DNA of 59,658 bases from a virus (taxonomy: Duplodnaviria > Caudoviricetes). The notes below the pieces were generated by a model, which was not told where the DNA came from, did no database searches, and saw only the letters and a program-made list of their open reading frames with translations. Position numbers and translations under genes: made by a program. The DNA lies in the IMG/VR virus record IMGVR_UViG_3300033067_000068, positions 1-59,658 of that record; one strand, 5' to 3'. Positions 12,301-59,426 of this stretch are shown here, piece after piece. Position 1 is the first letter of the stretch; every line of letters starts with the position of its first letter.

Positions 12301-12504
12301 CACTGTGCCCGTTGAAACGGTAAAGTCAAGGCATGTAAGCGCACCGGTGCAGGTAACAGTGTATGTCCCTGCTTGGTCAAAGAACACGGCATCTGCCGCA
12401 GTGGGTACGGACGCGCCGCTCGCTCCGCCGGACGTTGCAGACCAGTTGGTCGTGCTAGATGTGTTCCATGTACCCGACCCCCCAACCCAATAGCGGTTTG
12501 CCAT
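6361..12504 (-). CDS. 2047-aa Gly/Thr/Ser-rich repeat virion protein (fibre or decoration)
   Basis: YWVGGSGTWN module twice, FPLAQDTAVF three times, beta-helix-like composition; within structural module. Confidence 0.75.
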   Translation of the reverse strand: MANRYWVGGSGTWNTSSTTNWSATSGGASGASVPTAADAVFFDQAGTYTVTCTGALTCLDFTVSTGTVTFAQGTSPTFSIRGSMFLVAGTLWTATGTVNFTATSTGKIVTTNGTTFPADVQFNGVGGGWTLGSAMTTGTAGAYAFAVLAGTFTTANYNITCSAFQSTGALAATINLGSSTVTTTTNSVNFSNSSLTFNAGTSLIQHTGSFAFTFTGGGKTFYDFSISTTGTLSTATINGANTFNNFAVAANAAAGVREIRFTDRQTINGTLSTTGTAGNRRVWFRGTTYGIAQTLTINSAPSLTDADFRDIYVVGTAAPISGTRIGDLRGIRGITASTPKTVYWNTTSASTYGWSHNAWALASGGAVSTDNFPLAQDTAVFNNSSTIGTLILSTDAICEINATARTSSWTLSSTNNTVTIYGNLALGSGVTMAGTQAIVFSGRNTQTITSAGKTFSQPITIDSYGGTVQLGDAFNIGTNILSVTNGTFNTQNYNVTAGSLSSSSTNVRAINLGSSTVTLSTGSGVGFLGANFTFNAGTSTINLAGSAGPTISGGVTFYNVSVSALPSGGSLTLTGANTFNNLTVLAPVSASLGTISVQANQTITGTLTVSGASPIRRIFLRSDTLGTQRDLTVGTLVADDCDFRDIEILGAAIGTAPTRAGDCGGNNNITFPSAKTVYWNLSGTQNWSDTGWASSSGGTPDINNFPLAQDTAVFDNTGSVTGTITVNAAWNIGTFDASTRTSAMTFTNGGNTPVIYGDWKFGTGVAHSSSAGTLLFSKRGTQTITSNGVAFGCQITITCFTGTVQLADALTLIAARTLAFTSGTFDAVSYNVTVGVFASSTAGPTGGIKVLKMGSGLWTLSGTGTVFAGDFSTNAALYKGTADILLSDTSTTGRTFAATGSGASYNKLTIGGTTGTSTTTFSGTSGCQFTELASTKTVAHTLALGTGALTLGKWSITGTAGNVVTVTGTATLTIAGARVSGVDYLAMGTTAVSPTSPGEFYAGVNSTGTGSGVLLTIAQPASTYYWVGGSGTWNATSRTNWAITSGGAAGVYGPPTSADHVVFDSASNATAYTVTCTATQLRCASLTISGPASGNVTWAGTAPLAIHGNVTLAATGITRTYSGAITLSGSSTGKTFTTNGVGVVSPVTVDGVGCGWALGSAWVGSSTFTITNGSFDTANYAVTGNFVSNNSNSRSLSFGSSTVTIPATATVSFVTSTNFTFNAGTSSIVCTANTPSLSAGAGQTFYDCSFTSVGNGQVTITGANTFNNLSVTGTTSVGVKPVTFNANQTINGTLTLSPGTDATMRTFVRSDTIGTPRTLTCAAVTATDIDFRDITIAGAAAPVSGTRLGDCKGNSGITFDAAKTVYYRSTGPTNWGDSIARWSFTNGGTADFAAFPLAQDTAVFPSSPTPYPSSGSSVTINTAFNIGTIDMSARTSNTMTLSQGNAPTIYGNWVNGTGVTLSGSGNITFSGRGAQTVTSAGKPFGHPFIIDSPGGSVTLQDSWTTTFASTALTVTRGTFDAGGYNVTLSSSTGTVALNNTNVRTVAVGIGTWTIAGGGANAWNASTPTNLTVTGTGTISLTSASAKTFAGGGKDYSGITLNQGGAGALDITGNNTFANISNSYKATGATSITLGTTTQTVANFTASGEAGRVLTVQGTSASSPATLIFSGAGQATQPTTDYLTITGVRAYSLDTTWYAGANSTNNGSLGWYFEAGGGGPILVYIIESSTASSAESPLGTYNPSVSETTALADSAIAGMLYLGELSESATVADSVSAFRAFLGAVVEAAVSSEVTQAAAALSATLAEAVQAAETAQARAALNTSVQELTQGADATTGGLLFLSSILEASQAQELAAAVTAFNRSVSESAVTFDAVQVIASTFSAAASDTARPLDTPKGANTGTSSLSETLTASETASTKFNPSTSVSEQATAQETAAAKAMFSGPVLETATAVDQAGVAPSNFSAVALAAAQAAESFNPAGSMYNAVLITQGAAALDALRRSKLRTVNLEDFVFTDAAVPPVGLEALVTSNTASGTVESGQITATVLP

Positions 12505-26054: not shown

Positions 26055-27059
26055 ATGCGATTCAGCAACATCAAAACATCCGTGCTCTCCCAGTTCCAAG
26101 TCGATGGCGGTAACGCTGTCGTGCCGTTCATCCTCGGCGCTCCCGGTGGTGGTAAGTCGGCCTGTGCCCGTGAGATCATCAACGCACTCGATATCCCCGA
26201 GTCCAACGTGGTCGAGTTCACTGCGTCCCTGCGTGACCCTGTTGACGTGCTTGGCGTACCTGACAACACAGGCGAGTACACACGCTGGGTGCCACCGCAA
26301 GAGTTCTACAACCTGCGCCAAGGTGTCGGTCGGTCAGCACTCATTCTGGAGGAACTGTCGGACGCGCCTGTGCCCATGCAGAACGCGCTGTGCGGTGTGA
26401 TCTACGACCGTCGTGCTGGCAACCTCAAGCTGTCCGATCAGTTGTTCATCATCGCAACTGGCAACCGTACCGAAGACAAGTCTGGTGCCAACCGCATCAC
26501 ATCCAAGCTGGCCAACCGCACACGCCGCTTCGACTTCCAAGAGAACATCGACGACTGGACCGAGTGGGCGCTCGACAACGACATTGACCCTGTGCTGATT
26601 CAGTTCCTGCGCTTCCGTCCCGGCCTGTTGTCTGACTTCGATGCCAACCGCTTCGCCAACCCTACACCTCGTGCGTGGGAGCGTGTCAACCTCATCCCCA
26701 GTACGCTCGACTCTGGCCTGTTCTTCGACAACTGCGCTGGTGAGGTCGGTGAGGGTGCCGCCGCTGAGTTCACTGGCTTCAAGCGTATCTACGAGAACCT
26801 GCCTGACGTTGACTCTATCCTGCTCGACCCAGCTGGTGCCGATGTGCCCCAAGACCCTGCAACGCTGTATGCCCTGACTGGTGCGCTGGCCCGCAAGTCC
26901 ACCAAGGACAACTTCGACAGGGTAAGCCGCTATTTGAGCCGACTCTCACCGGAGTTCAACGTCATGGCTACCAAGGATGCGATCAAGCTTCAGCCGACCA
27001 TCAAACACAGTCGATCTTTCGTGGAGTGGGCGTCTAAGCATGCTGAGGTGTTGATGTAA
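26055..27059 (+). CDS. MoxR/dynein-related AAA+ ATPase
   Basis: Walker A GAPGGGKS, Walker B LILEEL, ATGNRTED, LANR, PTPRAWE. Confidence 0.88.
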   Translation: MRFSNIKTSVLSQFQVDGGNAVVPFILGAPGGGKSACAREIINALDIPESNVVEFTASLRDPVDVLGVPDNTGEYTRWVPPQEFYNLRQGVGRSALILEELSDAPVPMQNALCGVIYDRRAGNLKLSDQLFIIATGNRTEDKSGANRITSKLANRTRRFDFQENIDDWTEWALDNDIDPVLIQFLRFRPGLLSDFDANRFANPTPRAWERVNLIPSTLDSGLFFDNCAGEVGEGAAAEFTGFKRIYENLPDVDSILLDPAGADVPQDPATLYALTGALARKSTKDNFDRVSRYLSRLSPEFNVMATKDAIKLQPTIKHSRSFVEWASKHAEVLM

Positions 27060-30264: not shown

Positions 30265-31371
30265 ATGGCAGTTACCAAACTCGACCGCGCCAAAGTTGCC
30301 GTAGTCACACAGCATCCGTTCTTTGCATCCATCTTGATGAAGCGCAAGCTCATCCCCGACAACACCATCCCTACTGCGGCTGTTGACCAGCGCGGTCAGA
30401 TTTACTACAACGAGCAGTTCGTCGAGAAGCTGTCTGTTGACGAGCTTGTGTTCCTGCTGTGCCATGAGGTCGGCCACGTTATCGGTCAGCATGCTGCCCG
30501 TGTCGGCTCACGCAACCGCAAGAAGTGGAACATCGCTGGCGACGCATGGATTAACGACATGCTCAAGGACGCAGGCATCGGCTCCATGATCGAGGGTGGT
30601 GTCAACATGCCCGGCTCCAAGGACGAGACCGTTGACGAGATTTACAACAAGCTGCCCGACAACCCCAACGGTGGTGGCCCCGGTGGTACTGGTGATGACC
30701 TGATCGAGCGCGGCTCTCCCATGACACCCGAGGAAGCTGATCGCATCGACGCCGAGACTCGTGTGGAGATTGCCCAAGCAGCCCAAGCAGCCAAGGCTCA
30801 GGGCAAGATGCCCGGTGCTCTGGCCAAGATCGTAGCTGACCTCATCGACAGCCACACCCCATGGCACGATATTCTTGAGCGCTACATGACAGCGTTCACC
30901 CGTGGTGACTACACATGGGCACGACCCAACCGTCGCTTCGCCAACGCATACCTGCCATCGACCGGCAAGTCCCCTGAGATGGGTGAGATCGTCATCCAAG
31001 TCGACGTGTCTGGCTCTATCAGCAAGGTCGAACTCGACCACTACAACGGCCACTTACAGCGCATCGTGTCGATGTGCAATCCAACTCGCACCCACGTCTT
31101 GTATGTAGACACTGCGGTGGCTAAGCACGATGTGTTCGAGCAGGGCGAGGAGGTGGCTCTGACGTTCTACTGCGGCGGCGGCACTGATATGGAAGAGGGC
31201 TTCAACTACATCGACAAGGAAGGCATCAAGCCAGAAGTCTTTGTCTGCCTGACAGACGGCTACACCGACTTCAATACGGCCAACGCCCCGGACTATCCCG
31301 TGGTCTGGTGTATCTCTAGTGACATTGAGGCTCCATACGGCGACAATATCCACTTTACCTTGGAGTACTGA
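30265..31371 (+). CDS. metallopeptidase-like + vWA domain protein (DUF2201-like)
   Basis: HEVGH zincin motif, WNIAGD, MIDAS DVSGS, GGGTD, LTDGY. Confidence 0.88.
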   Translation: MAVTKLDRAKVAVVTQHPFFASILMKRKLIPDNTIPTAAVDQRGQIYYNEQFVEKLSVDELVFLLCHEVGHVIGQHAARVGSRNRKKWNIAGDAWINDMLKDAGIGSMIEGGVNMPGSKDETVDEIYNKLPDNPNGGGPGGTGDDLIERGSPMTPEEADRIDAETRVEIAQAAQAAKAQGKMPGALAKIVADLIDSHTPWHDILERYMTAFTRGDYTWARPNRRFANAYLPSTGKSPEMGEIVIQVDVSGSISKVELDHYNGHLQRIVSMCNPTRTHVLYVDTAVAKHDVFEQGEEVALTFYCGGGTDMEEGFNYIDKEGIKPEVFVCLTDGYTDFNTANAPDYPVVWCISSDIEAPYGDNIHFTLEY

Positions 31372-49246: not shown

Positions 49247-52200
49247 TTAGTTTGCAGCTACAGATTCTGCCAGTTTCTTCTGGCCTTCGCGGTATGCCAC
49301 ACCACCAACGGTGCGCTGCTCCCGAGCTTTCTGCTCTTGCGGTGCTTTGAGCAGGTTAGACACTGGCTGAGGCTTCAGGCCATTGCGCTGGCGAGCCTGC
49401 TGCAGTTTAGTCCATGCCGCACGGGCTTCGGCCATACCTTCGGTGTCTTTTTCACGGACAGCCTTGGCGTAGTCGTTCTTGATGCGCGTGGTGCGGTCGT
49501 TGAAGTTTTCAGTGATACCCCGCATGCGGTTCTGGCGCTCGTAGGTAACAGCCTGCTTCACGGCTGGTACACCCAAGGCAGTCAGCACTGTGTCGATTGC
49601 ACCAATCTCGCTGTCAGGCAAGATCACATCACCATTGCGGCGGGTCATGCCTTCGGCAGCTTGACGGCCAGCCTTGAGTGCGTCGGACACACCCTTTGGC
49701 ATAGTGCGCTCAACACCCTTGTAGTAGTCACCGCTGGCAATCAGGCCGAGGCCGTCAATCACACGGGACGACATACCCAGAGCAGCGCCACCCAGCAATG
49801 TACCAAGAGCTTCGGCGCGACCTGCGTTGGTGCTCAAGTCAGCGTCACTGAATGGCATGATGGACAGCATGTTGCCAGAGCCGATCTTGCCGGACAAGTC
49901 CATGCCCACAACGGTGGGAGCGCCGCGCATAACCATGTCAGCCCACTCTGGGCCAAGCGCCTTGCGCATTTCAGCAGTCAGGTCGTATGGCTCATCCTCG
50001 TCACCGAAGAAGCCCAAGATCGCAGAGATAGCAGCGTAACCGGGCAGGCCCATCATGCCAGCGAACACAGCAGTGTGGCTGAGTGAGTAGGCCAGTGTGC
50101 GCAGTGCAGCAGCACGCTCTTCAGGCTTAGTGAACGCATCACGAATCAGCTTGGCGTAGAACGCGATCTGAATCAACTGGAACTTGCGGAACTGCAAAGC
50201 CACCTTACCCCACTGGGTGTTGAACGCACGAGGAGCGTTGAAGGCAGTGTAGTCACCATGAGTCTCAGTCAGAATGTCAGCAGCGTACTGAGTTGCCTTG
50301 GCAGCGTCCTTGGTACGGGCATACTCCAATCGGTACGCAGCAATGGCAGTAGACAAGCGGTTGGTGGCTTCCACTTTCTGGACGGCCATACGCATGCCTT
50401 TGTTCAGGCGCTGTGCAAACTGGCTGAGTTTTCCGTCAGCGTCTACCTTGTACTCGTTGATCTCAGTGGCCAGACCAATGTCGATCTTGCCTTGGTTGAC
50501 CAAGTCGTTGATGGCAGTACGCACGTCAGCAGGCACTTTGGAGAAGTCAAACTGTTGGTCAAACAGCTTCACATCTTTGAATAGTGGGCCCAGCTCTGTG
50601 TACGCCTTGGCCAGCTCAGCAGCAGCTTTGGTGTAATCGTGACGACCTGCCATGGCAGGCAGCGACATCATGAACGGCTGAGTCAAGTTCTGCAGGTAGT
50701 AGCCGGGACTGGAAGCCAAGAAGAACTTGGACGCCAGGTTGGTCAAGACGTTGATGAACGGGTTGTTCTTTGGCTCCAGCGAGTCGGCGTAGCGTTTGGT
50801 CAGTTCGTCGAAGATTTCCGACTTGCGCTCGCGGTCGCCAGTGCGCGACTGGTTACGCATCTGCTGCAGAGCATCCTGAATCTTAGGCTCATACTCAACG
50901 CTGGCCAAGAAGTTGGCATCGGCACGACCTTGCTGTGTGAACGACTGGAGCATGTCCACTTCACCGGCTACACCACGGCGACGCATTTCAGACTTGCGAG
51001 CACTGCCCTCAGCCAACGCCTCCAAGTACAACTGGTTGATGATGTTCAGCAGCTTGCCAGCTGTTGGGTCTTTCTTGCCGTTGGCGTCTTGGGCACGACT
51101 GTCCACAGCGGCACGCATCTTGGTCAGAGCTGGCAGCATAGCCTCGCCACTGAATGCTTCGTCGAACGAATCAGAGCGCTTCACGATTTGTGGGCTATCG
51201 AACACACCCTGTTCAGCCAGCTTGTCGCTGAGGTTTCGAGCCTGCCACTTGGTATCGACAAACGACACATGGTAGTGGTCTGGGTCGGACTCCAACTTCT
51301 TGACTGTGGCCGTGTCACCCTTGGCCTTGGCGGCTTTGTACTCAGCGGACTCACCGATCACAACGTAAGCACCAGTACGCTTGATGGGTGCGTATGGCAC
51401 ACCCTCGCGGATGCGGAACAGTGTCTGGAAGCGCTTGAGTGTGGCAGCTTTCTCAGCCTTGAGCTTGGCTTCTGTCTGGGTGTCACCAGCGTCCTGAGCT
51501 GCCTTAATCATGGCGTCGTACTCAGAGTTGGTGGCGTTCAGCACAATGCGCTTCTTGTTGGACAGCGTAGCGTCACCATGGGCAAACACGTCTTTGACGA
51601 ACTGCTGAGCCTTGGGGCCCAACGCATCGAACATAGCACCCATCTTGGCATCGCGGTACTTGCCGTAACCCCACTTGCCTGTGCGGGTGGACTCAAACAA
51701 GAACTCGTTGACCGAGCCGGGGCCAGAGCCTTTGTTGGCGTCTTCAATCAGGGCGTAGCCATCAGCGATCTTTTCGATCTTGCGCTCTTCTTCACTGACC
51801 TTGGCGTTGCGTGCAGCAAGGCGGTCGGCAAATGTCTTGGCGGCACCCAGACCCAAAGCCTGAGCACGCTTGACCAGATCGTTTGTGAAGACGGCGTAGT
51901 CTAGGTACTTGCCGCCCAGATCGCCAATGGCAGCAGTCAGGTTCTTCACCGGCTGCTGGGACTGCTTTGGCAACTTGGCAATGTTGCGGTCGATCAGCCC
52001 TTGCGGTACTGCGTTCTTGCCAAACTTCATGCGCTGGCGATCAGCCGCAATCTCAGAACCAACACGGAAAATGTTCTTGTCATCAAAAATGATGAGGTTG
52101 CGCGTCTTTGGGTTCTGAACAACAGAGATGTCTTTCTCATTGGCGTTCAACCACGCTAGCTGCTTGGCTTGATATACAGTACGTTCAGCCAAAGCTTTGG

Positions 52201-55200
52201 CATCAGCCAGCGCCTTACTTTCGTCAAACTTTACGCCATATCTAGCGGCGATATCTTTGTCGGTATCAACAAACCTTTGTTCGTATTCAGCAACTTTTTC
52301 TGTAAGGGCCTGCTTTGTCTCGGCAAGTCCATTACGCAAGACGTCTGACAGAACGAGGAACTGCATAGCCTTGTCGCTGTCTGAGCCTCGGTACTTACGC
52401 ACTTGATCCCGCAGATCATCACGGTTGTATCGGCGACCATCAAACGAGATGGCATTAGAAGCCGAGCCTCTGCTCTTGGCGTCATAAAACTTAATGCCAT
52501 CCAGACCAATACCGCGTAGTAAGTGACTGGCAGCTTCATGGAATTTACCTTGGCGAACGGCCTCATCGAACTGCTTGTCTTGCCCCGCTGGCAGGGAGAT
52601 AGCGTCGTCCATGATGAGTAGGCTGAGCAGACCCAGATCATTTTCACCTGAGCCAATCAAGTCTTTGCCAGTCAGCTCTTCCACGTCTTTGTTGGTGCGA
52701 TCAACGATGTCATCGGCCACAGGATCGAGCAGCGCCATCAGTTTGTCAGCCACGTAGCTGGACTGTTTGATAACTGGCTTGTCATAGTCAAACACGCGCT
52801 CGTCTTCTACTGCCGTGTCAACGCGCATCAAGTTGCCTTCTGCGGTGCCGCCTTTGCGCTCTACGTCAGCTTTCCAGTAGCCCTTAGCAATACCAGTACG
52901 CTGAGCAAGGTAAGTGCCCCAACCGTAGGCGGTTGCACCTTCACCCGAGCCTATGAACTTGTTGCGGAAGTTGCGGAACGCAGCGGCAGTGCCGTGCCAC
53001 GTACCGTTGATCTCCAAGCGAGCAGCGCCGTAGGCCAAGTTGACAACGTCTTGGGCTGTCATGGACTCAGGCTTCATGCCCAGCTTGCGAGCGGCCACTT
53101 TGAACGCAGCCCACAGAGTGCGGAACCAGTTACGCAGGGGGCCGGACAGCTTGGCGTCAGTGGCAGCAGTTGGGTCAACGCCCATCTCCATGGCCGACTC
53201 GATGAAGTACGCAATCAGTTCTGACCGCCGGTCTTCCGCAGGAGTTTCTGCAGCTTGCACACGCTCGAAGGCTTGCAGTGCTAGTTCAGCTTCCAGAGAG
53301 CCGTCAGCTTTCTTGGCCCATGCCTTGATCTGGCTGACCAGCTTGTCCTGATCTGCTTTGGTGAGCAGGTTGTCCAGACCTAAGTGTCCGCCGACTTCGT
53401 GCATGAACTTGGCACGACCGGAGCCCTGCTTGATGCGGTTGGCCACCAAGAACGCACGACCATCTACGGCCACGCCGTAGGCACCTTGAAGCTGCAGTGC
53501 AGCGCCGACGGCCCGGATGTTTTTGTCACTAGACGACAGCAGATCAGCAACACTGTCCACCACCATGAGCTTGCGACCGGGGATGTCAGAGCGGATAAAC
53601 GCTTTGAGTTCAGCCAGCAGTTGTTTGGCTGTGTAGGGCTCAGTGGCAGGAGCTGACTCAGTACCGAACTTCATGCCGGACTTGGCCAACTTGGTCAGCT
53701 CAGTCTCTACATCAGCCTTAGTCCAGTTGTCAGGGCCGAAGTCAATAAAGTCTTCTTGCTGAGTCTTTGTCAGTTGCGCAAACTTGGGGGCGTCTGGATA
53801 CTCAGCAGCTACTACATCCCACGCTTGGGCTGCTTGCTCGGCTTCGGTGAGGATTTTGGCTGGGACTTGGGCTTGGCCTTCTGCGGCAGACTTTTTGGCA
53901 CGCCGTACTTGTCCGCCCACTTTTTCGCCAGTTCCGGCTTCTGGCTGAACAGATACCCCTGCTGGGCTCTCGACTTGAACGGCATCAACTTTCTCCAGTT
54001 TGGCCAGTTTGACAGACAGCTCTTTTGTCTGCCCGCTCTGGAACGCCACAGTAACAGTGGTCGAGTCGCCATCACCGGCAAAGCTCTTGACCACACCTGT
54101 ACCCAGCTTGGGGTTCTTGACAGTATCACCAACGGCAAGGCCGTTACGGTCAGCCTGCAACTTGGCTGCACGCTCGGCGCGGAACTTGGCAGCTTCAGCT
54201 TCCTTGGCTGCATCCTTCTCTTCAGCTGCTTTTTCGGCAGCTTTGCCTTTACCCTTGGTCTTTTTTGTAACCGCAGCGGATTCTGGCTTGGCCTCATAGC
54301 TAGACACAATGGCTTCGTACTCAGCAGTCAGCGCAGCAACACGTTCGGCTGCAGCAGCCTCAGCTTGCGCGAGCCCCAGTTGATTCAACTCAGCGGCAGC
54401 AGCTTTCAGCTCAGCAATAGTGTCAGCAATAGAAACCAGCTTGACGGCCAGTTGACTACCAGCGGTGCTGGCCTTTTGCCATTCGCGTGCATCGTCCAAG
54501 TTACCAAACGCCTCGCCAGCCTCACCTTCGATACCAGCTTCACGGAACGCAGCGGCCATGTCGCCGGAGTCAACTTCGTCGTTGATACGGGTGATCTGCT
54601 CGTCCAGCTCAGCCATGCGAGCAATGTCGGCTTTTGTCGGTTTGGCTTTGGCTTTCAGTCGTGCCAGTTCGCCTTCCAGTTTGCCCAGTTCAGTGGCCAG
54701 AGCTTTTTGTGCGGACTCAATACCCAAGCGATCAAACACCTGAGCACGGTCAAAGCCCATGGACACAGCAATGTCAGCCAGCTTTTCTGGGTTGCCGATC
54801 TGACGCACGCGTGATTCAGCGATTCCGAACGAGTCAGCAATTTCCTTGGCAATGTTGCCCTTGTATCCGCTTGGTACAGCACGACGTGCTGTGATGTAGG
54901 CACGCAAAATCTTGCGATCACGATCAGCGTTCTTGCCTTTGCCGACTTGCTCCTCAATGACGGCGTTCAAGTCATCATCAGTGAAGTCACGTTGGTCAGC
55001 ACGCAAGCCAGCTTCCTCTTCACGCATGGCTTCAATTTCAGCAGCGTTGCCAGTGGCGCGAGCAATCTCCAGCGCGTCGTCAGACGTATCAACTAGCGCA
55101 GTGGTACCAGCGGCACCTCGGGTGGTTGGTTCTTGTCCTTGCGGCGCTGCTTGGATGGTTTGAGGGGCTTGAGTGCCACTTGGTGCTCCAGTAGTTACAG

Positions 55201-56776
55201 GGGTAGATGGTTGCCCGGCTGTGCTTGGAAGAATGCCAGCTTGTTGAAGTGGGGCTCCAGCTGCTGGGGTACCTCCGACCACTGCTCCTGTGACAGGAGC
55301 AGGGCGTCCTGCATCTCCCAAGCCTCCTTGAACGACAGGGCTCCCGACTCCCACGCTTCCTGCAGGCTGCTGTACAGTAGAAATTCCTGTGCCACTTGGT
55401 GCCTCCTTGCGAGCTTCGATGATGGCAGCATCCAACAACTGCTGCGCTTTTTCCAAACGCTTGGGAGTCATCGGCTTTTCACCGGCGTATGCCCACACGC
55501 CAACCAGCAGATCGGAGTCCACTGGCAAACCGGAAGCCTGAATGTCAGAATACAGCTGCAGCGACGACGGCGTAGGGATAACACCAAATGTGTCACGCAG
55601 TTCGTACGAGCGTGGGTCGCGCACTGTGTTGGCAACCACTTGGGCCGTAGCTGCTGCATCAGCAGGTTTTTCCTGCGTCATGTCCAGCGGAGCCTGCGAA
55701 CGCTGAAGGGCTTCACCAACTGTCAGGGGGCGCTCAATACCAGTCTCTGGGTCGTTGACGAACTGGCCGGTAGGCTCATCGTACGCAGCTTTGAACTGAG
55801 CCACGTAGTCGCGGCGCTTAGGGCGAGTAATGCCCACGTTCTGGTTGATGAACGACTGCAAACCAAGAGTCTGGTCTTGGGTAACAAACTGGCTCTCCAG
55901 TGGGCGCTGCAGCGGCGCTTCTTGTTCAGTCATGGAAGATGTAAGGTCTCGCTCACGAGTAGCCTCACGGAAGCCCGGACTACGACGCCAGCCACCTGCA
56001 GCACCGCCAAGCAAGCCACCCAGCAGACCGCCACCAACAAACGACTCGGCGTAGTCATTCAATGCTTCTGGGCTAAACAAGTCAACGCGAGGGTCAATGG
56101 CCTGACGGCCAACATTGGTGATGTACTCCTGACCAACTTCACCGACAGCCTCAGAGAAACCAGTACGACCAGCAGCAGCCCCTGTGCGAGCTGCGCCACC
56201 AGTGAAACCACCTAGGTTGTCCAAGTAACGATTAGCAAAAGCAGCAGCGCGTTCTGCACGAATACCGGTACCAGCCAGCTTGCCGACAATACCAGTAGCG
56301 GCTTCAGCGCCGCCATACGCCAGACCGAGTGGGATGGCAGTCAAGTCAGTACGACCTGCTTGCTCTCGCTGAGCCTGCATGACTTCGCCAATACCGCTGA
56401 GCCCTGCGACACCAAAAGCAGCAGCTGGACCGCCAACAAGGCCAGCGCCTACGACAGGCACAATTTCAGGAAGCGACTGAACCCCCAGCTCGGCTGCGTA
56501 GCGACCAACGTCACCAACGCCTGAGATGTTTTTGTAGGAGCCAACAGCACCCTGATTGGTGTCGTAGTATCGCTGAGCAGTACGCTCAGCTTCAGCTTCT
56601 TGAGCCAGACGGTAGTCACGCGATAGCCCCAGCGGCTCAACTAAGCCGTAGGCTTTGGCTTGCAGGCGATCTATGGCCGAGCCGCCTAACTCCGACAAAC
56701 CAGCTTCCGGGGTTTCCACTCGGTACTGCTGGCTGTATCGCGCTGCAATTTCTTCGTCGGTCAGGCGGCGTGACAT
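49247..56776 (-). CDS. 2509-aa large polyvalent internal virion (ejection) protein
   Basis: Gly/Ala-rich N-terminus, HTH-like segment, Tudor-like segment, HEVGGH zincin motif, HGT...GSGEG..AYGWG.YL ART-like motif, YAPIKRTG (PLxRFG-like) C-terminal region; third gene of the ejection trio. Confidence 0.82.
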   Translation of the reverse strand: MSRRLTDEEIAARYSQQYRVETPEAGLSELGGSAIDRLQAKAYGLVEPLGLSRDYRLAQEAEAERTAQRYYDTNQGAVGSYKNISGVGDVGRYAAELGVQSLPEIVPVVGAGLVGGPAAAFGVAGLSGIGEVMQAQREQAGRTDLTAIPLGLAYGGAEAATGIVGKLAGTGIRAERAAAFANRYLDNLGGFTGGAARTGAAAGRTGFSEAVGEVGQEYITNVGRQAIDPRVDLFSPEALNDYAESFVGGGLLGGLLGGAAGGWRRSPGFREATRERDLTSSMTEQEAPLQRPLESQFVTQDQTLGLQSFINQNVGITRPKRRDYVAQFKAAYDEPTGQFVNDPETGIERPLTVGEALQRSQAPLDMTQEKPADAAATAQVVANTVRDPRSYELRDTFGVIPTPSSLQLYSDIQASGLPVDSDLLVGVWAYAGEKPMTPKRLEKAQQLLDAAIIEARKEAPSGTGISTVQQPAGSVGVGSPVVQGGLGDAGRPAPVTGAVVGGTPAAGAPLQQAGILPSTAGQPSTPVTTGAPSGTQAPQTIQAAPQGQEPTTRGAAGTTALVDTSDDALEIARATGNAAEIEAMREEEAGLRADQRDFTDDDLNAVIEEQVGKGKNADRDRKILRAYITARRAVPSGYKGNIAKEIADSFGIAESRVRQIGNPEKLADIAVSMGFDRAQVFDRLGIESAQKALATELGKLEGELARLKAKAKPTKADIARMAELDEQITRINDEVDSGDMAAAFREAGIEGEAGEAFGNLDDAREWQKASTAGSQLAVKLVSIADTIAELKAAAAELNQLGLAQAEAAAAERVAALTAEYEAIVSSYEAKPESAAVTKKTKGKGKAAEKAAEEKDAAKEAEAAKFRAERAAKLQADRNGLAVGDTVKNPKLGTGVVKSFAGDGDSTTVTVAFQSGQTKELSVKLAKLEKVDAVQVESPAGVSVQPEAGTGEKVGGQVRRAKKSAAEGQAQVPAKILTEAEQAAQAWDVVAAEYPDAPKFAQLTKTQQEDFIDFGPDNWTKADVETELTKLAKSGMKFGTESAPATEPYTAKQLLAELKAFIRSDIPGRKLMVVDSVADLLSSSDKNIRAVGAALQLQGAYGVAVDGRAFLVANRIKQGSGRAKFMHEVGGHLGLDNLLTKADQDKLVSQIKAWAKKADGSLEAELALQAFERVQAAETPAEDRRSELIAYFIESAMEMGVDPTAATDAKLSGPLRNWFRTLWAAFKVAARKLGMKPESMTAQDVVNLAYGAARLEINGTWHGTAAAFRNFRNKFIGSGEGATAYGWGTYLAQRTGIAKGYWKADVERKGGTAEGNLMRVDTAVEDERVFDYDKPVIKQSSYVADKLMALLDPVADDIVDRTNKDVEELTGKDLIGSGENDLGLLSLLIMDDAISLPAGQDKQFDEAVRQGKFHEAASHLLRGIGLDGIKFYDAKSRGSASNAISFDGRRYNRDDLRDQVRKYRGSDSDKAMQFLVLSDVLRNGLAETKQALTEKVAEYEQRFVDTDKDIAARYGVKFDESKALADAKALAERTVYQAKQLAWLNANEKDISVVQNPKTRNLIIFDDKNIFRVGSEIAADRQRMKFGKNAVPQGLIDRNIAKLPKQSQQPVKNLTAAIGDLGGKYLDYAVFTNDLVKRAQALGLGAAKTFADRLAARNAKVSEEERKIEKIADGYALIEDANKGSGPGSVNEFLFESTRTGKWGYGKYRDAKMGAMFDALGPKAQQFVKDVFAHGDATLSNKKRIVLNATNSEYDAMIKAAQDAGDTQTEAKLKAEKAATLKRFQTLFRIREGVPYAPIKRTGAYVVIGESAEYKAAKAKGDTATVKKLESDPDHYHVSFVDTKWQARNLSDKLAEQGVFDSPQIVKRSDSFDEAFSGEAMLPALTKMRAAVDSRAQDANGKKDPTAGKLLNIINQLYLEALAEGSARKSEMRRRGVAGEVDMLQSFTQQGRADANFLASVEYEPKIQDALQQMRNQSRTGDRERKSEIFDELTKRYADSLEPKNNPFINVLTNLASKFFLASSPGYYLQNLTQPFMMSLPAMAGRHDYTKAAAELAKAYTELGPLFKDVKLFDQQFDFSKVPADVRTAINDLVNQGKIDIGLATEINEYKVDADGKLSQFAQRLNKGMRMAVQKVEATNRLSTAIAAYRLEYARTKDAAKATQYAADILTETHGDYTAFNAPRAFNTQWGKVALQFRKFQLIQIAFYAKLIRDAFTKPEERAAALRTLAYSLSHTAVFAGMMGLPGYAAISAILGFFGDEDEPYDLTAEMRKALGPEWADMVMRGAPTVVGMDLSGKIGSGNMLSIMPFSDADLSTNAGRAEALGTLLGGAALGMSSRVIDGLGLIASGDYYKGVERTMPKGVSDALKAGRQAAEGMTRRNGDVILPDSEIGAIDTVLTALGVPAVKQAVTYERQNRMRGITENFNDRTTRIKNDYAKAVREKDTEGMAEARAAWTKLQQARQRNGLKPQPVSNLLKAPQEQKAREQRTVGGVAYREGQKKLAESVAAN

Positions 56777-56819: not shown

Positions 56820-58472
56820 TCAGCGTCCGTAAATGCTCTGAGCGCCCGGAGCAACACCGTATGTAGAAGTTGGGCCAAGGCCCGTAGTACGAGCACCCTG
56901 AAACCCAGATGGGCCGGTGGGATTAGACCTCAGCCGTGCCTCCTCAGCAATGCTGCGGTTCAGCGTGTCGTACGCTGCCAAAGCCTTGTTCAGCTTGGCC
57001 ATATCACGCTTGTCTTTGACGTCGTACTCTTCGTTGTTGAACATGACGGCTTCGCCATCGTTGCTCCAGATCAAACGGCTCAGGTTGTTGTCAGACACCC
57101 CGGCTGCTTTCAGCGCTGCAGGGCGATTTTCAGGCAGGATACCCTTGGTGGAGATGAAACCGCCCATGCCATCAGTCTGCACCAGCTTGCCGTCAACCTT
57201 GTACTGGACACCTGCCTCTTCAACTTTCGTGGGCTTTTCGTCGCGTGGTTTAGCTGTCAGTCCAAACAGAGTCAGCTTTTCTGGCTCAGTCAATTTGCGA
57301 CCGAGGCTAGCTTCCACGTCAGCCACTTTCTTGGTCAGACCTTTCTCGCCCTCATCCCGAGAGTAGCGATTTGCCTGCGCTCTGTCTTTGGACGCTTGTG
57401 CCTTGGATGCGTCAATTTGAGCCTCTTTGGCTTTGAGAGATGCGAGCTGAATAGCGGTCTCGAATGGCTTGTCCTGAGCGTTGCTCGTATAGAACGAGGC
57501 AGCCTGCTGCAGTGCAGACACTCCAGCGGCATCGGCAAACAGTGGGCTCATAGGCTTGTCGCCATACATGACTTGGTAGCCACCGCGCACCTTAGTAAAC
57601 GTGGGGATGATGTTGTCTTCCTTGTTTGGGTCAGCAAACGAAGCCAGCAGCGTATTGAACGCACCTTCACCTTGTGAGGCAGCCTTGTTGATACTGTTCA
57701 CCAGCTTCTTGGTCTCAGCTGCAGCCACTTTGTCAGTGATTCCCAGAACATTGGAAGCCGTGTTAAGGAGCGTAGTGTAGTCACCGTTGAACTGCGCCTG
57801 TGCTTCAGCGATCAGAACCATGTCCAGCGGACGGCCTTCTTTTTGCTTCTCGGCGATGTACTGAGCGGCCTTGTTGGTGTTTTGCTTGGTGTCGTAGTCA
57901 GCTCTAGTGCGAGCATCGACCTCTTCTTGACGGCTCACGTCGTAAGCCTTAAGGCGGTATTGCTCAGCCTGATCGGTCAAACCGTACTTAGCGTATACGT
58001 CAGCTTGGCGCTTGAGCTGCTGCGACATGGGCAACTCACGGGTCAGACCCTGAGCAGGCATACCTTGCTCGGCTGCGGTACGTGCGACAGCTGGAGCCCC
58101 GCCAGCGGCGTAGGCAGCGCGAACAGCGCCAGCTTGCTCAGGTGTGAAGCCACGAGCATAGCCAGTACCCGGTGGAGTTGTGGGCGCGGCGCGTGGAGCC
58201 ACCAAACCTTGTTGCGGCTGAATGCTCGTGAAGTCATCCTGCGTGCCGTACGCACCAGTGCCGAGACCAGTAGGAGCTGGCTGGACCTGCATGTCGGGGG
58301 TGTAGACGCGAGGTTGCTCTGGGATGTCGGCCAGCCCAGTAGACCCGGCAGCAGAAATCTCTTCGGCGGCACGGCGCTTGCGAGTTTGCTCTTCGATGGT
58401 GTTGTATGTATCCAGCCAGCTTTTGGCCATCCGTGTACCGGACTCCATGCCTTGTGCGAATGCGCTTGCCAT
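56820..58472 (-). CDS. internal virion / ejection protein
   Basis: MASAFAQGMESG start; helical Ala/Gln-rich; middle gene of the trio. Confidence 0.65.
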   Translation of the reverse strand: MASAFAQGMESGTRMAKSWLDTYNTIEEQTRKRRAAEEISAAGSTGLADIPEQPRVYTPDMQVQPAPTGLGTGAYGTQDDFTSIQPQQGLVAPRAAPTTPPGTGYARGFTPEQAGAVRAAYAAGGAPAVARTAAEQGMPAQGLTRELPMSQQLKRQADVYAKYGLTDQAEQYRLKAYDVSRQEEVDARTRADYDTKQNTNKAAQYIAEKQKEGRPLDMVLIAEAQAQFNGDYTTLLNTASNVLGITDKVAAAETKKLVNSINKAASQGEGAFNTLLASFADPNKEDNIIPTFTKVRGGYQVMYGDKPMSPLFADAAGVSALQQAASFYTSNAQDKPFETAIQLASLKAKEAQIDASKAQASKDRAQANRYSRDEGEKGLTKKVADVEASLGRKLTEPEKLTLFGLTAKPRDEKPTKVEEAGVQYKVDGKLVQTDGMGGFISTKGILPENRPAALKAAGVSDNNLSRLIWSNDGEAVMFNNEEYDVKDKRDMAKLNKALAAYDTLNRSIAEEARLRSNPTGPSGFQGARTTGLGPTSTYGVAPGAQSIYGR

Positions 58473-58484
58473 ATTCAGTACTCC

Positions 58485-59426
58485 TTATTTTCTGCCGAGG
58501 TAGCCAGCGCCAAGAGTTCCGGCCATGCCGAGCAGAGAGCCAGTCATGCCAGCTTGTTCCTGCATAGCAGCGTTGGCCATACTGGTGGCACCGCTATACA
58601 GACCGCCGTAACCTGTAATTGCTTGGCCTGCGCCAGTAGTCATGGTGTTTGCCGCACGAGCTGCACCAGTGCTGAATTGAGCTCCGGGAGCCATAGCAGA
58701 GGTAAGACCCGCAGAGCCAGCTCCGGTAGCGCCGGAGTAGGCAGCAGTAGACGCACCAGCAAGGTTTCGTCCAATACCAGCGACGTCCAGTTTGCGGGCG
58801 TATCCCAGCTGTTCTGCTTGTTGTCTTGCGCCAGTCATAGCAGCGGCGCGTTGCGCGGACAGCCCAAGCATGTTTTGCGACTGCATAGCCATACCAGCGC
58901 CAGAGTTGGGGTTTACCCCACGAGCGGCTGCGGCACGACTGGCCGCATCTTGAGTAACGCCAAAAGCACGACCGGCAGCGGCGGCGGCCTGTGCAGCAAG
59001 TTGTTCTCGGTAGCCTTCAGTGCTAAACCGTGTAGCGTCAGCCACAAGACCCTGCTCCAGAGGTCGGAACGTGCCTGTCTGGTAGTTGTAGTAGTCACGA
59101 GCTTGGCGCATCTGTTCGTCTTGCGCTGCGATCTGGGACGCAGAAACTTGGCGAGCCAGCGGCATCAACTCATCATATTGGCGTTTCTCAAAAGCCAGCT
59201 GGTCTTGGCCAAGCTGATACGACAAATTAGCAGCATAGTCAGAAGAAGACGCTAGTCCTTGAGCCGCACGTTCTTGAGCAGCTTGGGCGGACGCAGCACT
59301 CTCTCGACCGGACTGCATCAGCATACCTGCACCAGCGCCAGCCACGCCAGCGCCAATCAGGGCAGCCCCACCAAGTCCTGCGGCAAGACCACCACCAACA
59401 GCAATAGCTGAAACAACAGCACTCAT
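58485..59426 (-). CDS. DNA-transfer / pilot ejection protein
   Basis: Gly/Ala hydrophobic termini, Gln/Ala coiled coil, GVNPNSG motif. Confidence 0.7.
   Translation of the reverse strand: MSAVVSAIAVGGGLAAGLGGAALIGAGVAGAGAGMLMQSGRESAASAQAAQERAAQGLASSSDYAANLSYQLGQDQLAFEKRQYDELMPLARQVSASQIAAQDEQMRQARDYYNYQTGTFRPLEQGLVADATRFSTEGYREQLAAQAAAAAGRAFGVTQDAASRAAAARGVNPNSGAGMAMQSQNMLGLSAQRAAAMTGARQQAEQLGYARKLDVAGIGRNLAGASTAAYSGATGAGSAGLTSAMAPGAQFSTGAARAANTMTTGAGQAITGYGGLYSGATSMANAAMQEQAGMTGSLLGMAGTLGAGYLGRK

What the first reader, a model, noticed from the sequence alone, without database searches (positions are those of the whole stretch)
53987..54139. PcrA/UvrD C-terminal Tudor-like domain inside a virion protein
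Seen: LAVGDTVKNPKLGTGVVKSFAGDGDSTTVTVAFQSGQTKELSVKLAKLEKV, flanked by low-complexity linkers. Known: the PcrA/UvrD C-terminal domain has the pattern GD.V.H..FG.G.V....G.G....V.F...G.K.L....A.L..V and binds RNA polymerase. Inference: a captured RNAP tether, or a competitor of host UvrD. The usual His is Asn here, so binding may differ.
Basis: partly seen in the sequence, partly recalled or inferred. Interest (0 to 1): 0.75.

Follow-up and report, generated by a model that had tools for sequence, protein, structure and literature searches.

The report
UvrD-type Tudor cassette in phage giant protein
A giant late protein of a complete 60-kb phage carries, as an optional plug-in module between two flexible linkers, a true copy of the small domain that bacterial UvrD/PcrA helicases use to dock onto RNA polymerase and UvrB, so the phage may have borrowed a host docking device.

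Summary
The peptide is real, but it is on the minus strand: residues 880-930 of a 2509-aa ORF (49247-56776). It is a true PcrA/UvrD C-terminal Tudor domain. Pfam PF21196 matches end to end above its cut-off.

The carrier is a mosaic PLxRFG ("DarB-like") giant at the end of the late gene block of a complete phage. The domain is an optional cassette: 44 of 117 relatives found through the neighbouring block carry it. Others have a different small module or only linker at the same slot. Where present it is under strong purifying selection (pN/pS 0.077) and forms one clade.

Of four residues shown experimentally to be needed for RNAP binding, two are kept (K918, L920). Two are replaced in every copy (H→N888, W/F→L891).

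A co-fold with E. coli RpoB 140-460 passed (0.64; best control 0.00). It placed those residues on the IDESTGELI hairpin, but a similar complex is solved (7EGS) and E. coli is a stand-in host.

Binding, virion location and host are not shown. This is a new variant of a known kind.

The parts
53987..54139 (-). PcrA/UvrD-type Tudor domain, residues 880-930 of the giant protein (Pfam envelope 882-929 = nt 53990-54133)
   Evidence: HMMs; PDB sequence hits; AF2 model pLDDT 79.5; the 8 best fold hits are all UvrD/PcrA Tudor.
54140..54295 (-). Upstream K/A/E-rich linker (residues 828-879) that ends in a conserved R-(K/N)-G just before the domain
   Evidence: Read; composition. The same charged linker precedes the domain in divergent relatives.
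53876..53986 (-). Downstream linker (residues 931-967, begins DAVQVESP). It is kept in relatives with or without the Tudor and marks the 3' edge of the slot.
   Evidence: relatives keep this linker while the segment just upstream of it is the Tudor, another module or plain linker.
53678..53875 (-). Conserved small block after the linker (residues 968-1033), no family match. Together with 931-967 it served as the Tudor-independent search seed.
   Evidence: No Pfam match and no PDB sequence match.
54797..54925 (-). Helix-turn-helix-like piece (residues 618-660), a sub-threshold Sigma70_r4 match, in the same swappable region as the Tudor
   Evidence: 15.6-20.5 bits against a cut-off of 24.1 in 4 of 4 window-type copies scanned. 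Found in 31 of 44 Tudor-bearing and 14 of 73 Tudor-less relatives.
52004..53677 (-). Variable cassette (residues 1034-1591), absent or swapped in many relatives. Holds a conserved HEVGGH motif (1126-1131) and a weak ART-PolyVal match (1260-1310).
   Evidence: mosaic HSPs; ART-PolyVal 18.7-20.5 bits against a cut-off of 31.2. The fold of 1240-1600 gave no match.
49310..51277 (-). C-terminal PLxRFG domain (residues 1834-2489), the family-defining conserved part of the giant
   Evidence: NCBIfam NF032893: 307 bits against a cut-off of 100. phrog_10089 'DarB-like antirestriction', E 1.1e-62. tblastn hits to 44 phage records cover only this part.
49247..56776 (-). The whole giant ORF (2509 aa), last gene of the minus-strand late/structural block
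   Evidence: Upstream on the same strand lie 56820-58472 (no family) and 58485-59426 (phrog_8003, virion structural protein). Terminase, portal and an internal virion protein are also on this strand.

Best explanation
[quoted passage not shown] A lineage of ~60-kb phages acquired it once. It now sits between two flexible linkers, as one of several alternative plug-in modules, at a fixed slot in a mosaic PLxRFG ('DarB-like', polyvalent-type) giant protein encoded at the end of the late operon.

The most likely mechanism is inferred, not shown. After the giant protein reaches the host cytoplasm, the domain docks on the conserved TGE beta-hairpin ('helicase interaction motif') that bacteria display on RNA polymerase beta (lobe/SI1) and on UvrB domain 2. 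It would use the same face as UvrD: K918 and L920 are kept, while N888 and L891 replace the His and the aromatic residue. This would hold the giant protein, and whatever it carries, on the host transcription or repair machinery.

Shown here: homology, fold, slot architecture, optional presence, purifying selection, single clade.
Inferred: delivery from the virion, the binding partner, the consequence.
For: Homology:
- PF21196 matches 1-48 of 48, 28.2 bits against a cut-off of 23.9; 26.7 bits in the six-frame search.
- uvrD/pcrA equivalog models match with their C-terminal ends only.
- The 7 best PDB sequence hits are all UvrD/PcrA.
- Foldseek ranks 1-8 are all UvrD/PcrA Tudor domains, including 7egs_B (UvrD CTD with the E. 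coli RNAP lobe; rmsd 1.4 A, TM 0.88 on target) and 7egt_B (UvrD CTD with UvrB).

Constraint:
- Across 5 Tudor-bearing genes pS is 0.433 and pN 0.033, ratio 0.077.
- 21 of 51 positions are invariant in 49 distinct copies.
- The domain persists with the same linker architecture in giants only 34-37% identical elsewhere.

Binding face:
- The equivalents of PcrA K712 and L714 are kept (mapping from the 5dma alignment). Sanders 2017, PMC5397179, passages: single Ala mutants of H681, W684, K712 and L714 each severely reduce RNAP pull-down.

Co-fold (Tudor 872-936 with RPOB_ECOLI 140-460):
- Score 0.64; best of 3 controls 0.00.
- The mark was reached by 58 of 80 solved complexes and 2 of 110 mismatched pairs.
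- The runs agree in at least 95% of contacts; partner pLDDT at least 84.
- Contacts on the phage side are N888-L891 and K918-S921. On beta they are 300, 302, 304-309 and 312, which lie on or beside I302-DESTGEL-I310. That is the hairpin named in PMC8318588.

Target must come from the host: no such hairpin motif is encoded anywhere in the phage's six frames.

Context:
- Complete phage record.
- The gene is last in the late block, beside virion-protein genes.
- No phage RNA polymerase was found among the ORFs scanned.
Against: - Two of the four residues required in PcrA are replaced in all 54 distinct giant-borne copies (H->N, W/F->L). The interface may be weakened or retargeted.
- The co-fold pass may come from memory of 7EGS. 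E. coli is only a stand-in, because the host is unknown (nothing found in genome contigs).
- The domain is missing from 73 of 117 relatives and from 5 of 9 related viral loci, so the giant works without it.
- It does not travel with the ART-like cassette: 9 of 44 Tudor-bearing against 31 of 73 Tudor-less relatives. So it is not a dedicated guide for that candidate effector.
- In UvrD itself the Tudor is dispensable for excision repair in vivo (PMC11975281, passages), and reported partners differ by lineage (RNAP, UvrB, Ku).
- Virion packaging and ejection are not shown. No paper found gives a function for PLxRFG giants.
Confidence: 0.5

Rival explanations
1. Retargeted module. The fold is inherited from UvrD, but the clade-fixed Asn888 and Leu891 have moved its specificity to another host protein. 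That could be a different hairpin-bearing protein, Ku, or a defence component. It would be one of several interchangeable host-specific docking modules at this slot.
For: - H->N and W/F->L are present in 54 of 54 distinct giant copies and in 0 of 23 other copies.
- H681A and W684A each severely reduce RNAP binding in PcrA (PMC5397179).
- The slot holds alternatives: a QQRW-type helical module in 19 of 117 and an ARDAG-type module in 3 of 117. The QQRW module never occurs together with the Tudor.
- The Tudor label needs at least 24 changes on the tree of the C-terminal domain, a pattern expected of host-interaction modules.
- UvrD1's Tudor binds Ku in mycobacteria (PMC11975281).
Against: - K918 and L920 are kept and invariant or nearly so.
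- Asn and Leu are conservative compared with the Ala substitutions that were tested.
- The co-fold still places the domain on the TGE hairpin with the usual face.
Confidence: 0.2
2. Decoy. The domain binds the same hairpin as UvrD, and its purpose is to displace UvrD from RNA polymerase or UvrB. That would raise R-loops or block transcription-linked repair. Tethering the giant protein would not be the point.
For: - Free PcrA CTD outcompetes full-length PcrA for RNAP, and preventing the PcrA-RNAP association raises R-loops in B. subtilis (PMC8318588, passages).
- The co-fold uses the UvrD footprint.
Against: - A protein delivered from the virion arrives in few copies against thousands of RNAP molecules (established knowledge; inference).
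- The UvrD Tudor is dispensable for excision repair in vivo in E. coli and M. smegmatis (PMC11975281).
- The domain is built into a 2509-aa protein and not released as a free small protein. The exhaustive search found no small free form with the N/L signature: such copies lie in giants of 1236 aa or more, apart from one 530-aa entry, P0098, that may be a gene fragment.
Confidence: 0.12
3. Internal role. The domain binds another phage protein or part of the giant itself, for example during assembly or packaging, and has nothing to do with host proteins.
For: - Tudor/SH3-like barrels are common small phage domains: BFVD gives many weak matches, none at E <= 0.001.
- The gene lies in the structural block.
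Against: - The domain is optional in near-identical backbones. L002 is 96% identical over residues 1-522 and 86-89% over 931-2509, yet lacks it.
- No helicase-interaction hairpin motif occurs in the phage.
- The PcrA CTD did not bind DNA in gel shifts (PMC5397179).
Confidence: 0.1
4. Chance resemblance, or a generic SH3/KOW-like barrel unrelated to UvrD.
For: - It is a short domain. In the context of the whole protein the Pfam score (20.2 bits) is under the cut-off.
- One false positive (an RTX repeat protein, P0110) appeared among the 34 hits of the exhaustive search.
Against: - Full-length profile match over the cut-off for the segment alone.
- Three independent helicase models match with their C-terminal ends.
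- The best sequence and fold matches in PDB are all UvrD/PcrA.
- The nearest non-giant relatives include fragments with UvrD_C followed by the Tudor (P0113, P0116, P0120).
Confidence: 0.02

Closest known systems
C-terminal Tudor domain of PcrA/UvrD helicases (Pfam PF21196; PDB 5DMA, 6YI2, 7EGS, 7EGT, 9DQS)
   Same: - Same family by HMM, PDB sequence search and fold search.
- Same length, about 50 residues.
- Joined to the rest of the protein by disordered linkers.
- The Lys and Leu of the binding face are kept (K918, L920).
- Predicted to sit on the same TGE hairpin of RNAP beta.
   Different: - It is internal, not C-terminal.
- There is no SF1 helicase anywhere in the protein.
- The carrier is a phage late giant.
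- The His and the aromatic residue of the binding face are replaced by Asn and Leu in every copy.
- It is optional within its own family.
Polyvalent proteins of phages and conjugative elements (Iyer et al. 2017, PMC5512222), including P1 DarB-type giants
   Same: - A giant, mosaic, multi-module protein in a phage late block.
- Modules shuffle between relatives.
- Relatives carry precomputed ART-PolyVal, PF18838 and ParB-N domains.
- PHROG annotation is 'DarB-like antirestriction'.
   Different: - No methylase-helicase dyad is present.
- The ART-PolyVal match in this copy is below the cut-off.
- The main text of that paper has 0 occurrences of 'Tudor' and of 'SH3'. It mentions whole UvrD helicases only in actinomycete plasmid giants. 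Its supplements could not be seen.
Phage T4 Alt (recalled; described in the introduction of PMC5512222)
   Same: A head-packaged protein injected with the DNA that acts on host RNA polymerase at the start of infection. It is the functional analogy for 'an ejected protein that targets RNAP'.
   Different: Alt is an enzyme (an ADP-ribosyltransferase) with no Tudor domain. Here only a docking module is recognised, and injection is not shown.
Mfd / CarD RNAP-interacting Tudor-like domain (PF02559)
   Same: A Tudor-like barrel that binds the RNAP beta subunit. It appears in the fold list at ranks 11-20.
   Different: - There is no PF02559 match for the phage segment even at E <= 1.
- It binds the beta1 domain, not the SI1 hairpin, and Mfd does not compete with PcrA for RNAP in pull-downs (PMC8318588).

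Membership tests
PcrA/UvrD Tudor domain (PF21196) | Profile match over the curated gathering score across the whole model | tested here: met
   28.2 bits for the segment and 26.7 bits in the six-frame search, against a cut-off of 23.9, covering profile 1-48 of 48. In the context of the whole 2509-aa protein the score is 20.2 bits, below the cut-off.
PcrA/UvrD Tudor domain (PF21196) | Small antiparallel beta-barrel whose closest solved structures are PcrA/UvrD CTDs | tested here: met
   AF2 model: pLDDT 79.5, pTM 0.63. Foldseek ranks 1-8 are all UvrD/PcrA/UvrD1 Tudor domains, rmsd 1.4-2.2 A for the crystal structures.
PcrA/UvrD Tudor domain (PF21196) | Lys and Leu of the partner-binding face (PcrA K712, L714; E. 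coli UvrD K708) | tested here: met
   K918 and L920 align to them. Both are invariant in the 49 distinct copies. Lys is Arg in two divergent copies (P0096, P0097).
PcrA/UvrD Tudor domain (PF21196) | His and aromatic residue of the binding face (PcrA H681, W684) | tested here: not met
   Asn888 and Leu891 are found in 54 of 54 distinct giant-borne copies. Among 23 other copies, 17 have H/F, 4 have His with H, Y or M, 1 has S/F and 1 has D/R.
PcrA/UvrD Tudor domain (PF21196) | Position at the extreme C-terminus of an SF1 helicase, after a disordered linker | tested here: not met
   The domain is internal (880-930 of 2509). There is no helicase domain in the protein. Disordered-looking linkers lie on both sides.
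PcrA/UvrD Tudor domain (PF21196) | Physical binding to the TGE hairpin of RpoB or UvrB | not testable with these tools
   Only a model is available: co-fold score 0.64, best control 0.00, footprint on I302-I310 of E. coli beta. A similar complex is solved (7EGS), so the pass shows likeness, not binding.
PLxRFG domain proteins (NCBIfam NF032893; phrog_10089) | Profile match over the cut-off at the C-terminus of a very large phage protein | tested here: met
   307 bits against a cut-off of 100, residues 1834-2489. phrog_10089 E 1.1e-62.
Polyvalent proteins (Iyer et al. 2017) | Several unrelated effector domains in one polypeptide, encoded with late or packaging genes | tested here: inconclusive
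   Late-block position and mosaic modules are seen. The only enzyme-like match in this copy is ART-PolyVal at 18.7-20.5 bits, against a cut-off of 31.2. The fold of 1240-1600 gave no PDB match.
Polyvalent proteins (Iyer et al. 2017) | Packaged in the virion and delivered into the host with the DNA | not testable with these tools
   Inferred from gene order only. No proteomic data were found.
Mfd/CarD RID Tudor-like domain (PF02559) | Profile match | tested here: not met
   PF02559 is not among the matches of the segment at E <= 1. Mfd and CarD structures rank 11-20, with E 0.03-0.07.

The most novel reading that the evidence does not exclude
The giant protein has a dedicated 'docking slot' that phages fill with interchangeable host-grabbing modules. 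In this phage the slot holds a UvrD Tudor taken from bacteria. That domain seizes host RNA polymerase by its SI1 hairpin at the point of DNA entry. The ejected protein, which also carries an HTH-like piece, would then hand the incoming genome directly to the host polymerase for early transcription or DNA pull-in. The other slot occupants (the QQRW and ARDAG modules) would be unknown adaptors for other host targets.
Probability: 0.15. Interest if true: 0.8.

Novelty: new variant of a known kind. Interest (0 to 1): 0.55.

Why it matters
Phages are known to control host RNA polymerase with their own small inhibitors and modifying enzymes. Here a phage appears instead to have copied the host's own adaptor domain and wired it into a giant late protein. 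If it binds, it gives three things:
- a natural probe for the poorly understood SI1 hairpin of RNAP beta and for the UvrD-UvrB-RNAP competition;
- a first functional handle on the uncharacterised PLxRFG giants, which take up over 10% of many ~60-kb phage genomes;
- a clean natural experiment, because near-identical phages differ by presence, absence or replacement of this one cassette.

I found no description of this arrangement in print (full-text searches; main text of the polyvalent-protein paper). Supplements were not visible.

Tried and rejected
- Megablast of the gene against named phages: no match.
- tblastn of the giant against named phages: 44 records, all under 60% identity and only over the C-terminal ~600 residues.
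- tblastn of the 51-aa segment against named phages: 6 records. Two (H33, H36) are annotated DNA helicase II in Salmonella enterica records, and three are unannotated records that I did not inspect. H31 proved to be an ordinary 742-aa UvrD/PcrA helicase on an unverified gut scaffold. So no named phage in that collection shows the domain in a giant.
- Genome-contig scan with the giant: nothing, so no host clue.
- Search for a paper citing 7EGS: none in the library, so the interface residues of that crystal were not read.
- ART-like region 1240-1600: AF2 model pLDDT 67.7, with the first 83 residues under 50. Foldseek against PDB gave no match at E <= 0.001. An enzymatic effector in this copy is therefore not established.
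- PDB sequence searches found nothing meaningful for the QQRW module, the HTH-like piece or the conserved part of the downstream block (residues 961-1040). Pfam found nothing for the QQRW module.
- BFVD fold search with the Tudor model: no match at E <= 0.001, only weak generic small barrels.
- 'The Tudor guides the ART-like cassette': rejected on co-occurrence, 9 of 44 against 31 of 73.
- 'Recent capture from a host of different composition': not supported. GC3 is 0.588 for the domain and 0.586 for the gene.
- The careful tree of the Tudor copies did not finish, so the quick tree is reported.
- The comparison 'Tudor more conserved than the C-terminus in 79 of 79' is biased, because that set was seeded on the Tudor region. 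I give it little weight and rely on the Tudor-independent set.
Full report
OBSERVATION

The quoted 51-residue peptide is encoded exactly at 53987-54139, but on the minus strand (the plus strand reads otherwise). It is residues 880-930 of a single 2509-aa ORF, 49247-56776(-).

IS IT A PcrA/UvrD TUDOR DOMAIN?

Yes.
- Pfam PF21196 matches all 48 profile positions at 28.2 bits (cut-off 23.9) for the segment. It scores 26.7 bits in a six-frame search of the record, and 20.2 bits when scored inside the whole giant.
- The NCBIfam uvrD, PRK11773 and pcrA models match only with their last ~47-50 positions.
- In PDB sequence searches the 7 best rows are all UvrD/PcrA chains: 4c2t at E 7e-6, then 6yi2, 7egs, 5dma, 1qhh, 9dqs and 7egt. 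The 8th row is an antibody chain at E 0.073.
- An AF2 model built on a 28-row alignment has pLDDT 79.5.
- In Foldseek against PDB, ranks 1-8 are UvrD/PcrA/UvrD1 Tudor domains. ERCC6L2, Mfd, CarD and eukaryotic Tudors follow.

An exhaustive HMMER pass over 1.84 billion cluster representatives gave 34 proteins at E <= 0.001.
- The best are giants or pieces of giants.
- The rest are short C-terminal pieces. I scanned 10 of these with Pfam:
  - three carry UvrD_C followed by the Tudor (P0113, P0116, P0120);
  - two are multi-Tudor proteins (P0100, P0107);
  - two are small proteins whose only clear match is the Tudor itself (P0103, P0104);
  - one (P0102) matches only the CarD-like model;
  - one is an RTX false positive (P0110);
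  - one has no family (P0119).

WHAT CARRIES IT

The window is a complete viral record of 59658 bases, with a CheckV completeness estimate of 100%. The genes recognised are:
- On the minus strand: terminase, portal, an internal virion protein and a virion structural protein.
- On the plus strand: DNA polymerase, an SNF2 helicase and a primase-helicase.

No tRNA was found, and no RNA polymerase among the ORFs I scanned. The nearest named relatives are distant: the portal is 35% identical to Rhizobium phage RHph_TM27A-type phages.

The giant is the last gene of the minus-strand late block. Its C-terminal ~650 residues are a PLxRFG domain (NF032893, 307 bits; phrog_10089 'DarB-like antirestriction'). 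That is the only part shared with named phages. Papers that mention PLxRFG proteins give no function. 'Virion protein' is thus an inference.

THE DOMAIN IS AN OPTIONAL CASSETTE AT A FIXED SLOT

A search seeded on residues 860-940 found 93 giants of 1456-3137 aa with the domain at 63-100% identity. That set is biased towards carriers, so I made two Tudor-independent sets.

1. Nine IMG/VR loci found through peptide patterns elsewhere in the protein.
   - Only 4 of the 9 carry the domain.
   - L002 is 96% identical over 1-522 and 86-89% identical over 931-2509. It lacks the region 523-930, and homology resumes exactly at residue 931, the first residue after the domain.
2. A search seeded on the downstream block 931-1033 (129 hits, 120 listed).
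   - Of the 117 with at least 60 residues upstream of the block, 44 carry the Tudor.
   - 19 carry an unrelated helical 'QQRW' module at the same place, 3 carry an 'ARDAG' module, and 51 have linker or something else.
   - The Tudor and the QQRW module never occur together.

On a FastTree of the C-terminal domain (116 rows), the Tudor label needs 24 changes, at least 19 of them forced by well-supported branches. The Tudor copies themselves fall on one side of a branch (SH-aLRT 94, quick tree). So there was one acquisition, followed by repeated shuffling among backbones. Part of that shuffling may be recombination between the two halves of the gene.

GC3 of the domain equals that of the gene, so the capture is not recent.

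CONSTRAINT

Among five Tudor-bearing genes, pS is 0.433 and pN 0.033, a ratio of 0.077. The domain survives, with the same charged linker before it and an 'NAVQ/DAVQ' linker after it, in giants only 34-37% identical in their C-terminal domain.

THE BINDING FACE

Sanders et al. 2017 (PMC5397179; passages read) showed that H681A, W684A, K712A and L714A each severely reduce RNAP pull-down by the PcrA CTD, and that K708A weakens E. coli UvrD.

Through the 5dma alignment these residues map to N888, L891, K918 and L920. The Lys and Leu are kept. The His and the aromatic residue are replaced by Asn and Leu in all 54 distinct giant-borne copies and in none of 23 other copies. Some short fragments were classed as giant-type by this very signature.

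Urrutia-Irazabal et al. 2021 (PMC8318588; passages) mapped the CTD's target to a TGE beta-hairpin. It is present in RpoB SI1 (IDESTGELI in E. coli) and in UvrB domain 2. UvrB and RNAP compete for the CTD, and a docked Lys-Glu pair was proposed.

CO-FOLD

The Tudor (872-936, with alignment A1) was folded against RPOB_ECOLI 140-460.
- Score 0.64; best of 3 controls 0.00.
- The mark was reached by 58 of 80 solved complexes and 2 of 110 mismatched pairs.
- The runs agree in at least 95% of contacts; partner pLDDT is at least 84.
- Phage-side contacts are N888-L891, 900-902, 905, 907, K918-S921 and 924-926.
- Beta-side contacts are 214, 216-218, 300, 302, 304-309, 312 and 357-359. Reading rpoB from NC_000913.3 shows that 302-310 is IDESTGELI, and that E308 pairs with K918 at low predicted error.

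The tool warns that a solved analogue may drive the result, and 7EGS is one (E. coli RNAP lobe with UvrD CTD). E. coli is also only a stand-in for an unknown host. I take the pass as showing that the replaced residues do not stop the model from recognising the UvrD-like interface. It is not evidence that this copy binds.

No hairpin of this kind is encoded by the phage itself. If the domain binds such a hairpin, the hairpin belongs to the host.

MECHANISM

The best-supported reading (about 0.5) is a host-docking module. Once the giant is in the cytoplasm, the linker-tethered Tudor docks on the TGE hairpin of RNAP beta or UvrB and holds the giant there.

A pure decoy role is less likely, for three reasons.
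- Virion-delivered proteins are few.
- The UvrD Tudor is dispensable for repair in vivo (PMC11975281).
- No small free form with the N/L signature exists among the hits. Such copies lie in giants of 1236 aa or more, apart from one 530-aa entry, P0098, that may be a gene fragment.

A retargeted specificity is a serious rival (about 0.2), given the fixed N/L pair and the alternative occupants of the slot.

A role inside the virion is disfavoured by the domain's optional presence in near-identical backbones.

The idea that the Tudor aims an ADP-ribosyltransferase at RNAP is not supported.
- The ART-PolyVal match is below its cut-off.
- The fold of that region matched nothing.
- The cassette does not co-occur with the Tudor.

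COMPARISON AND NOVELTY

The domain belongs to PF21196 by profile and fold. It fails two context features of the family (C-terminal position, attachment to a helicase) and half of the tested binding residues. It is a new variant: a helicase adaptor domain detached from its helicase and used as a shuffled cassette in a phage giant.

Iyer et al. 2017 (PMC5512222; term search of the main text) describe polyvalent proteins but do not mention a Tudor or SH3 module. They note whole UvrD helicases in actinomycete plasmid giants. Full-text searches found no description of this arrangement.

VERDICT

- The domain identity is settled.
- The function is plausible and directly testable, but not shown.
- Interest is moderate (0.55).

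Noticed in passing
L008:12449-12676 (+), and the same place in L009; also in 19 of 117 relatives: A ~50-residue helical module (begins QQRWKDAGRD, contains LLLPYVRDTIKN) sits exactly in the Tudor's slot, just before the conserved AVQVESP linker, and never occurs together with the Tudor. It has no Pfam match and no PDB sequence match.
   Followed up: partly
window 54797-54925 (-), residues 618-660 of the giant: An HTH-like piece gives sub-threshold Sigma70_r4 matches (15.6-20.5 bits against a cut-off of 24.1) in all four window-type copies scanned. It is commoner in Tudor-bearing relatives (31 of 44) than in Tudor-less ones (14 of 73). Tudor-less L002-type copies have a different HTH (HTH_23-like) at the corresponding place.
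   Followed up: partly
window 53384-53401 (-), residues 1126-1131: An FMHEVGGHLG motif is nearly invariant in relatives that carry this cassette. Its spacing is HExxxH, not the zincin HExxH. No family match.
   Followed up: no
window 52847-52999 (-), residues 1260-1310: A conserved WHGT...GWGTY stretch gives a weak ART-PolyVal match (18.7-20.5 bits, cut-off 31.2). The AF2 model is poor here, and no fold match was found for 1240-1600.
   Followed up: yes
window 6361-12504 (-): A second giant ORF of 2047 aa in the structural block has no Pfam or PHROG match at all.
   Followed up: no
window 30265-31371 (+) and 26055-27059 (+): A DUF2201 putative metallopeptidase with a VWA-like domain (E 3.4e-48) lies near a weak AAA_5 (MoxR-like) ATPase match, in the early/replication block. 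This is an ATPase-VWA pair inside a phage.
   Followed up: no
window 56401-56466 (-) and 50015-50071 (-): residues 105-126 and 2236-2254 of the giant: There are two strongly hydrophobic, Gly/Ala-rich stretches (Kyte-Doolittle mean >= 1.6 over 19 residues), one near each end of the giant. They could be membrane-inserting segments.
   Followed up: no
proteins P0100, P0107 and P0102 from the exhaustive search: Small metagenomic proteins made of two or three tandem Tudor domains of the PcrA/UvrD or CarD type, with no helicase. Their function is unknown.
   Followed up: partly
L012:3925-6153 (+) (MT835525.1): An unverified 'Bacteriophage sp.' gut scaffold encodes a complete 742-aa UvrD/PcrA helicase with its Tudor. 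It may be a phage-borne helicase or bacterial DNA in the record.
   Followed up: partly
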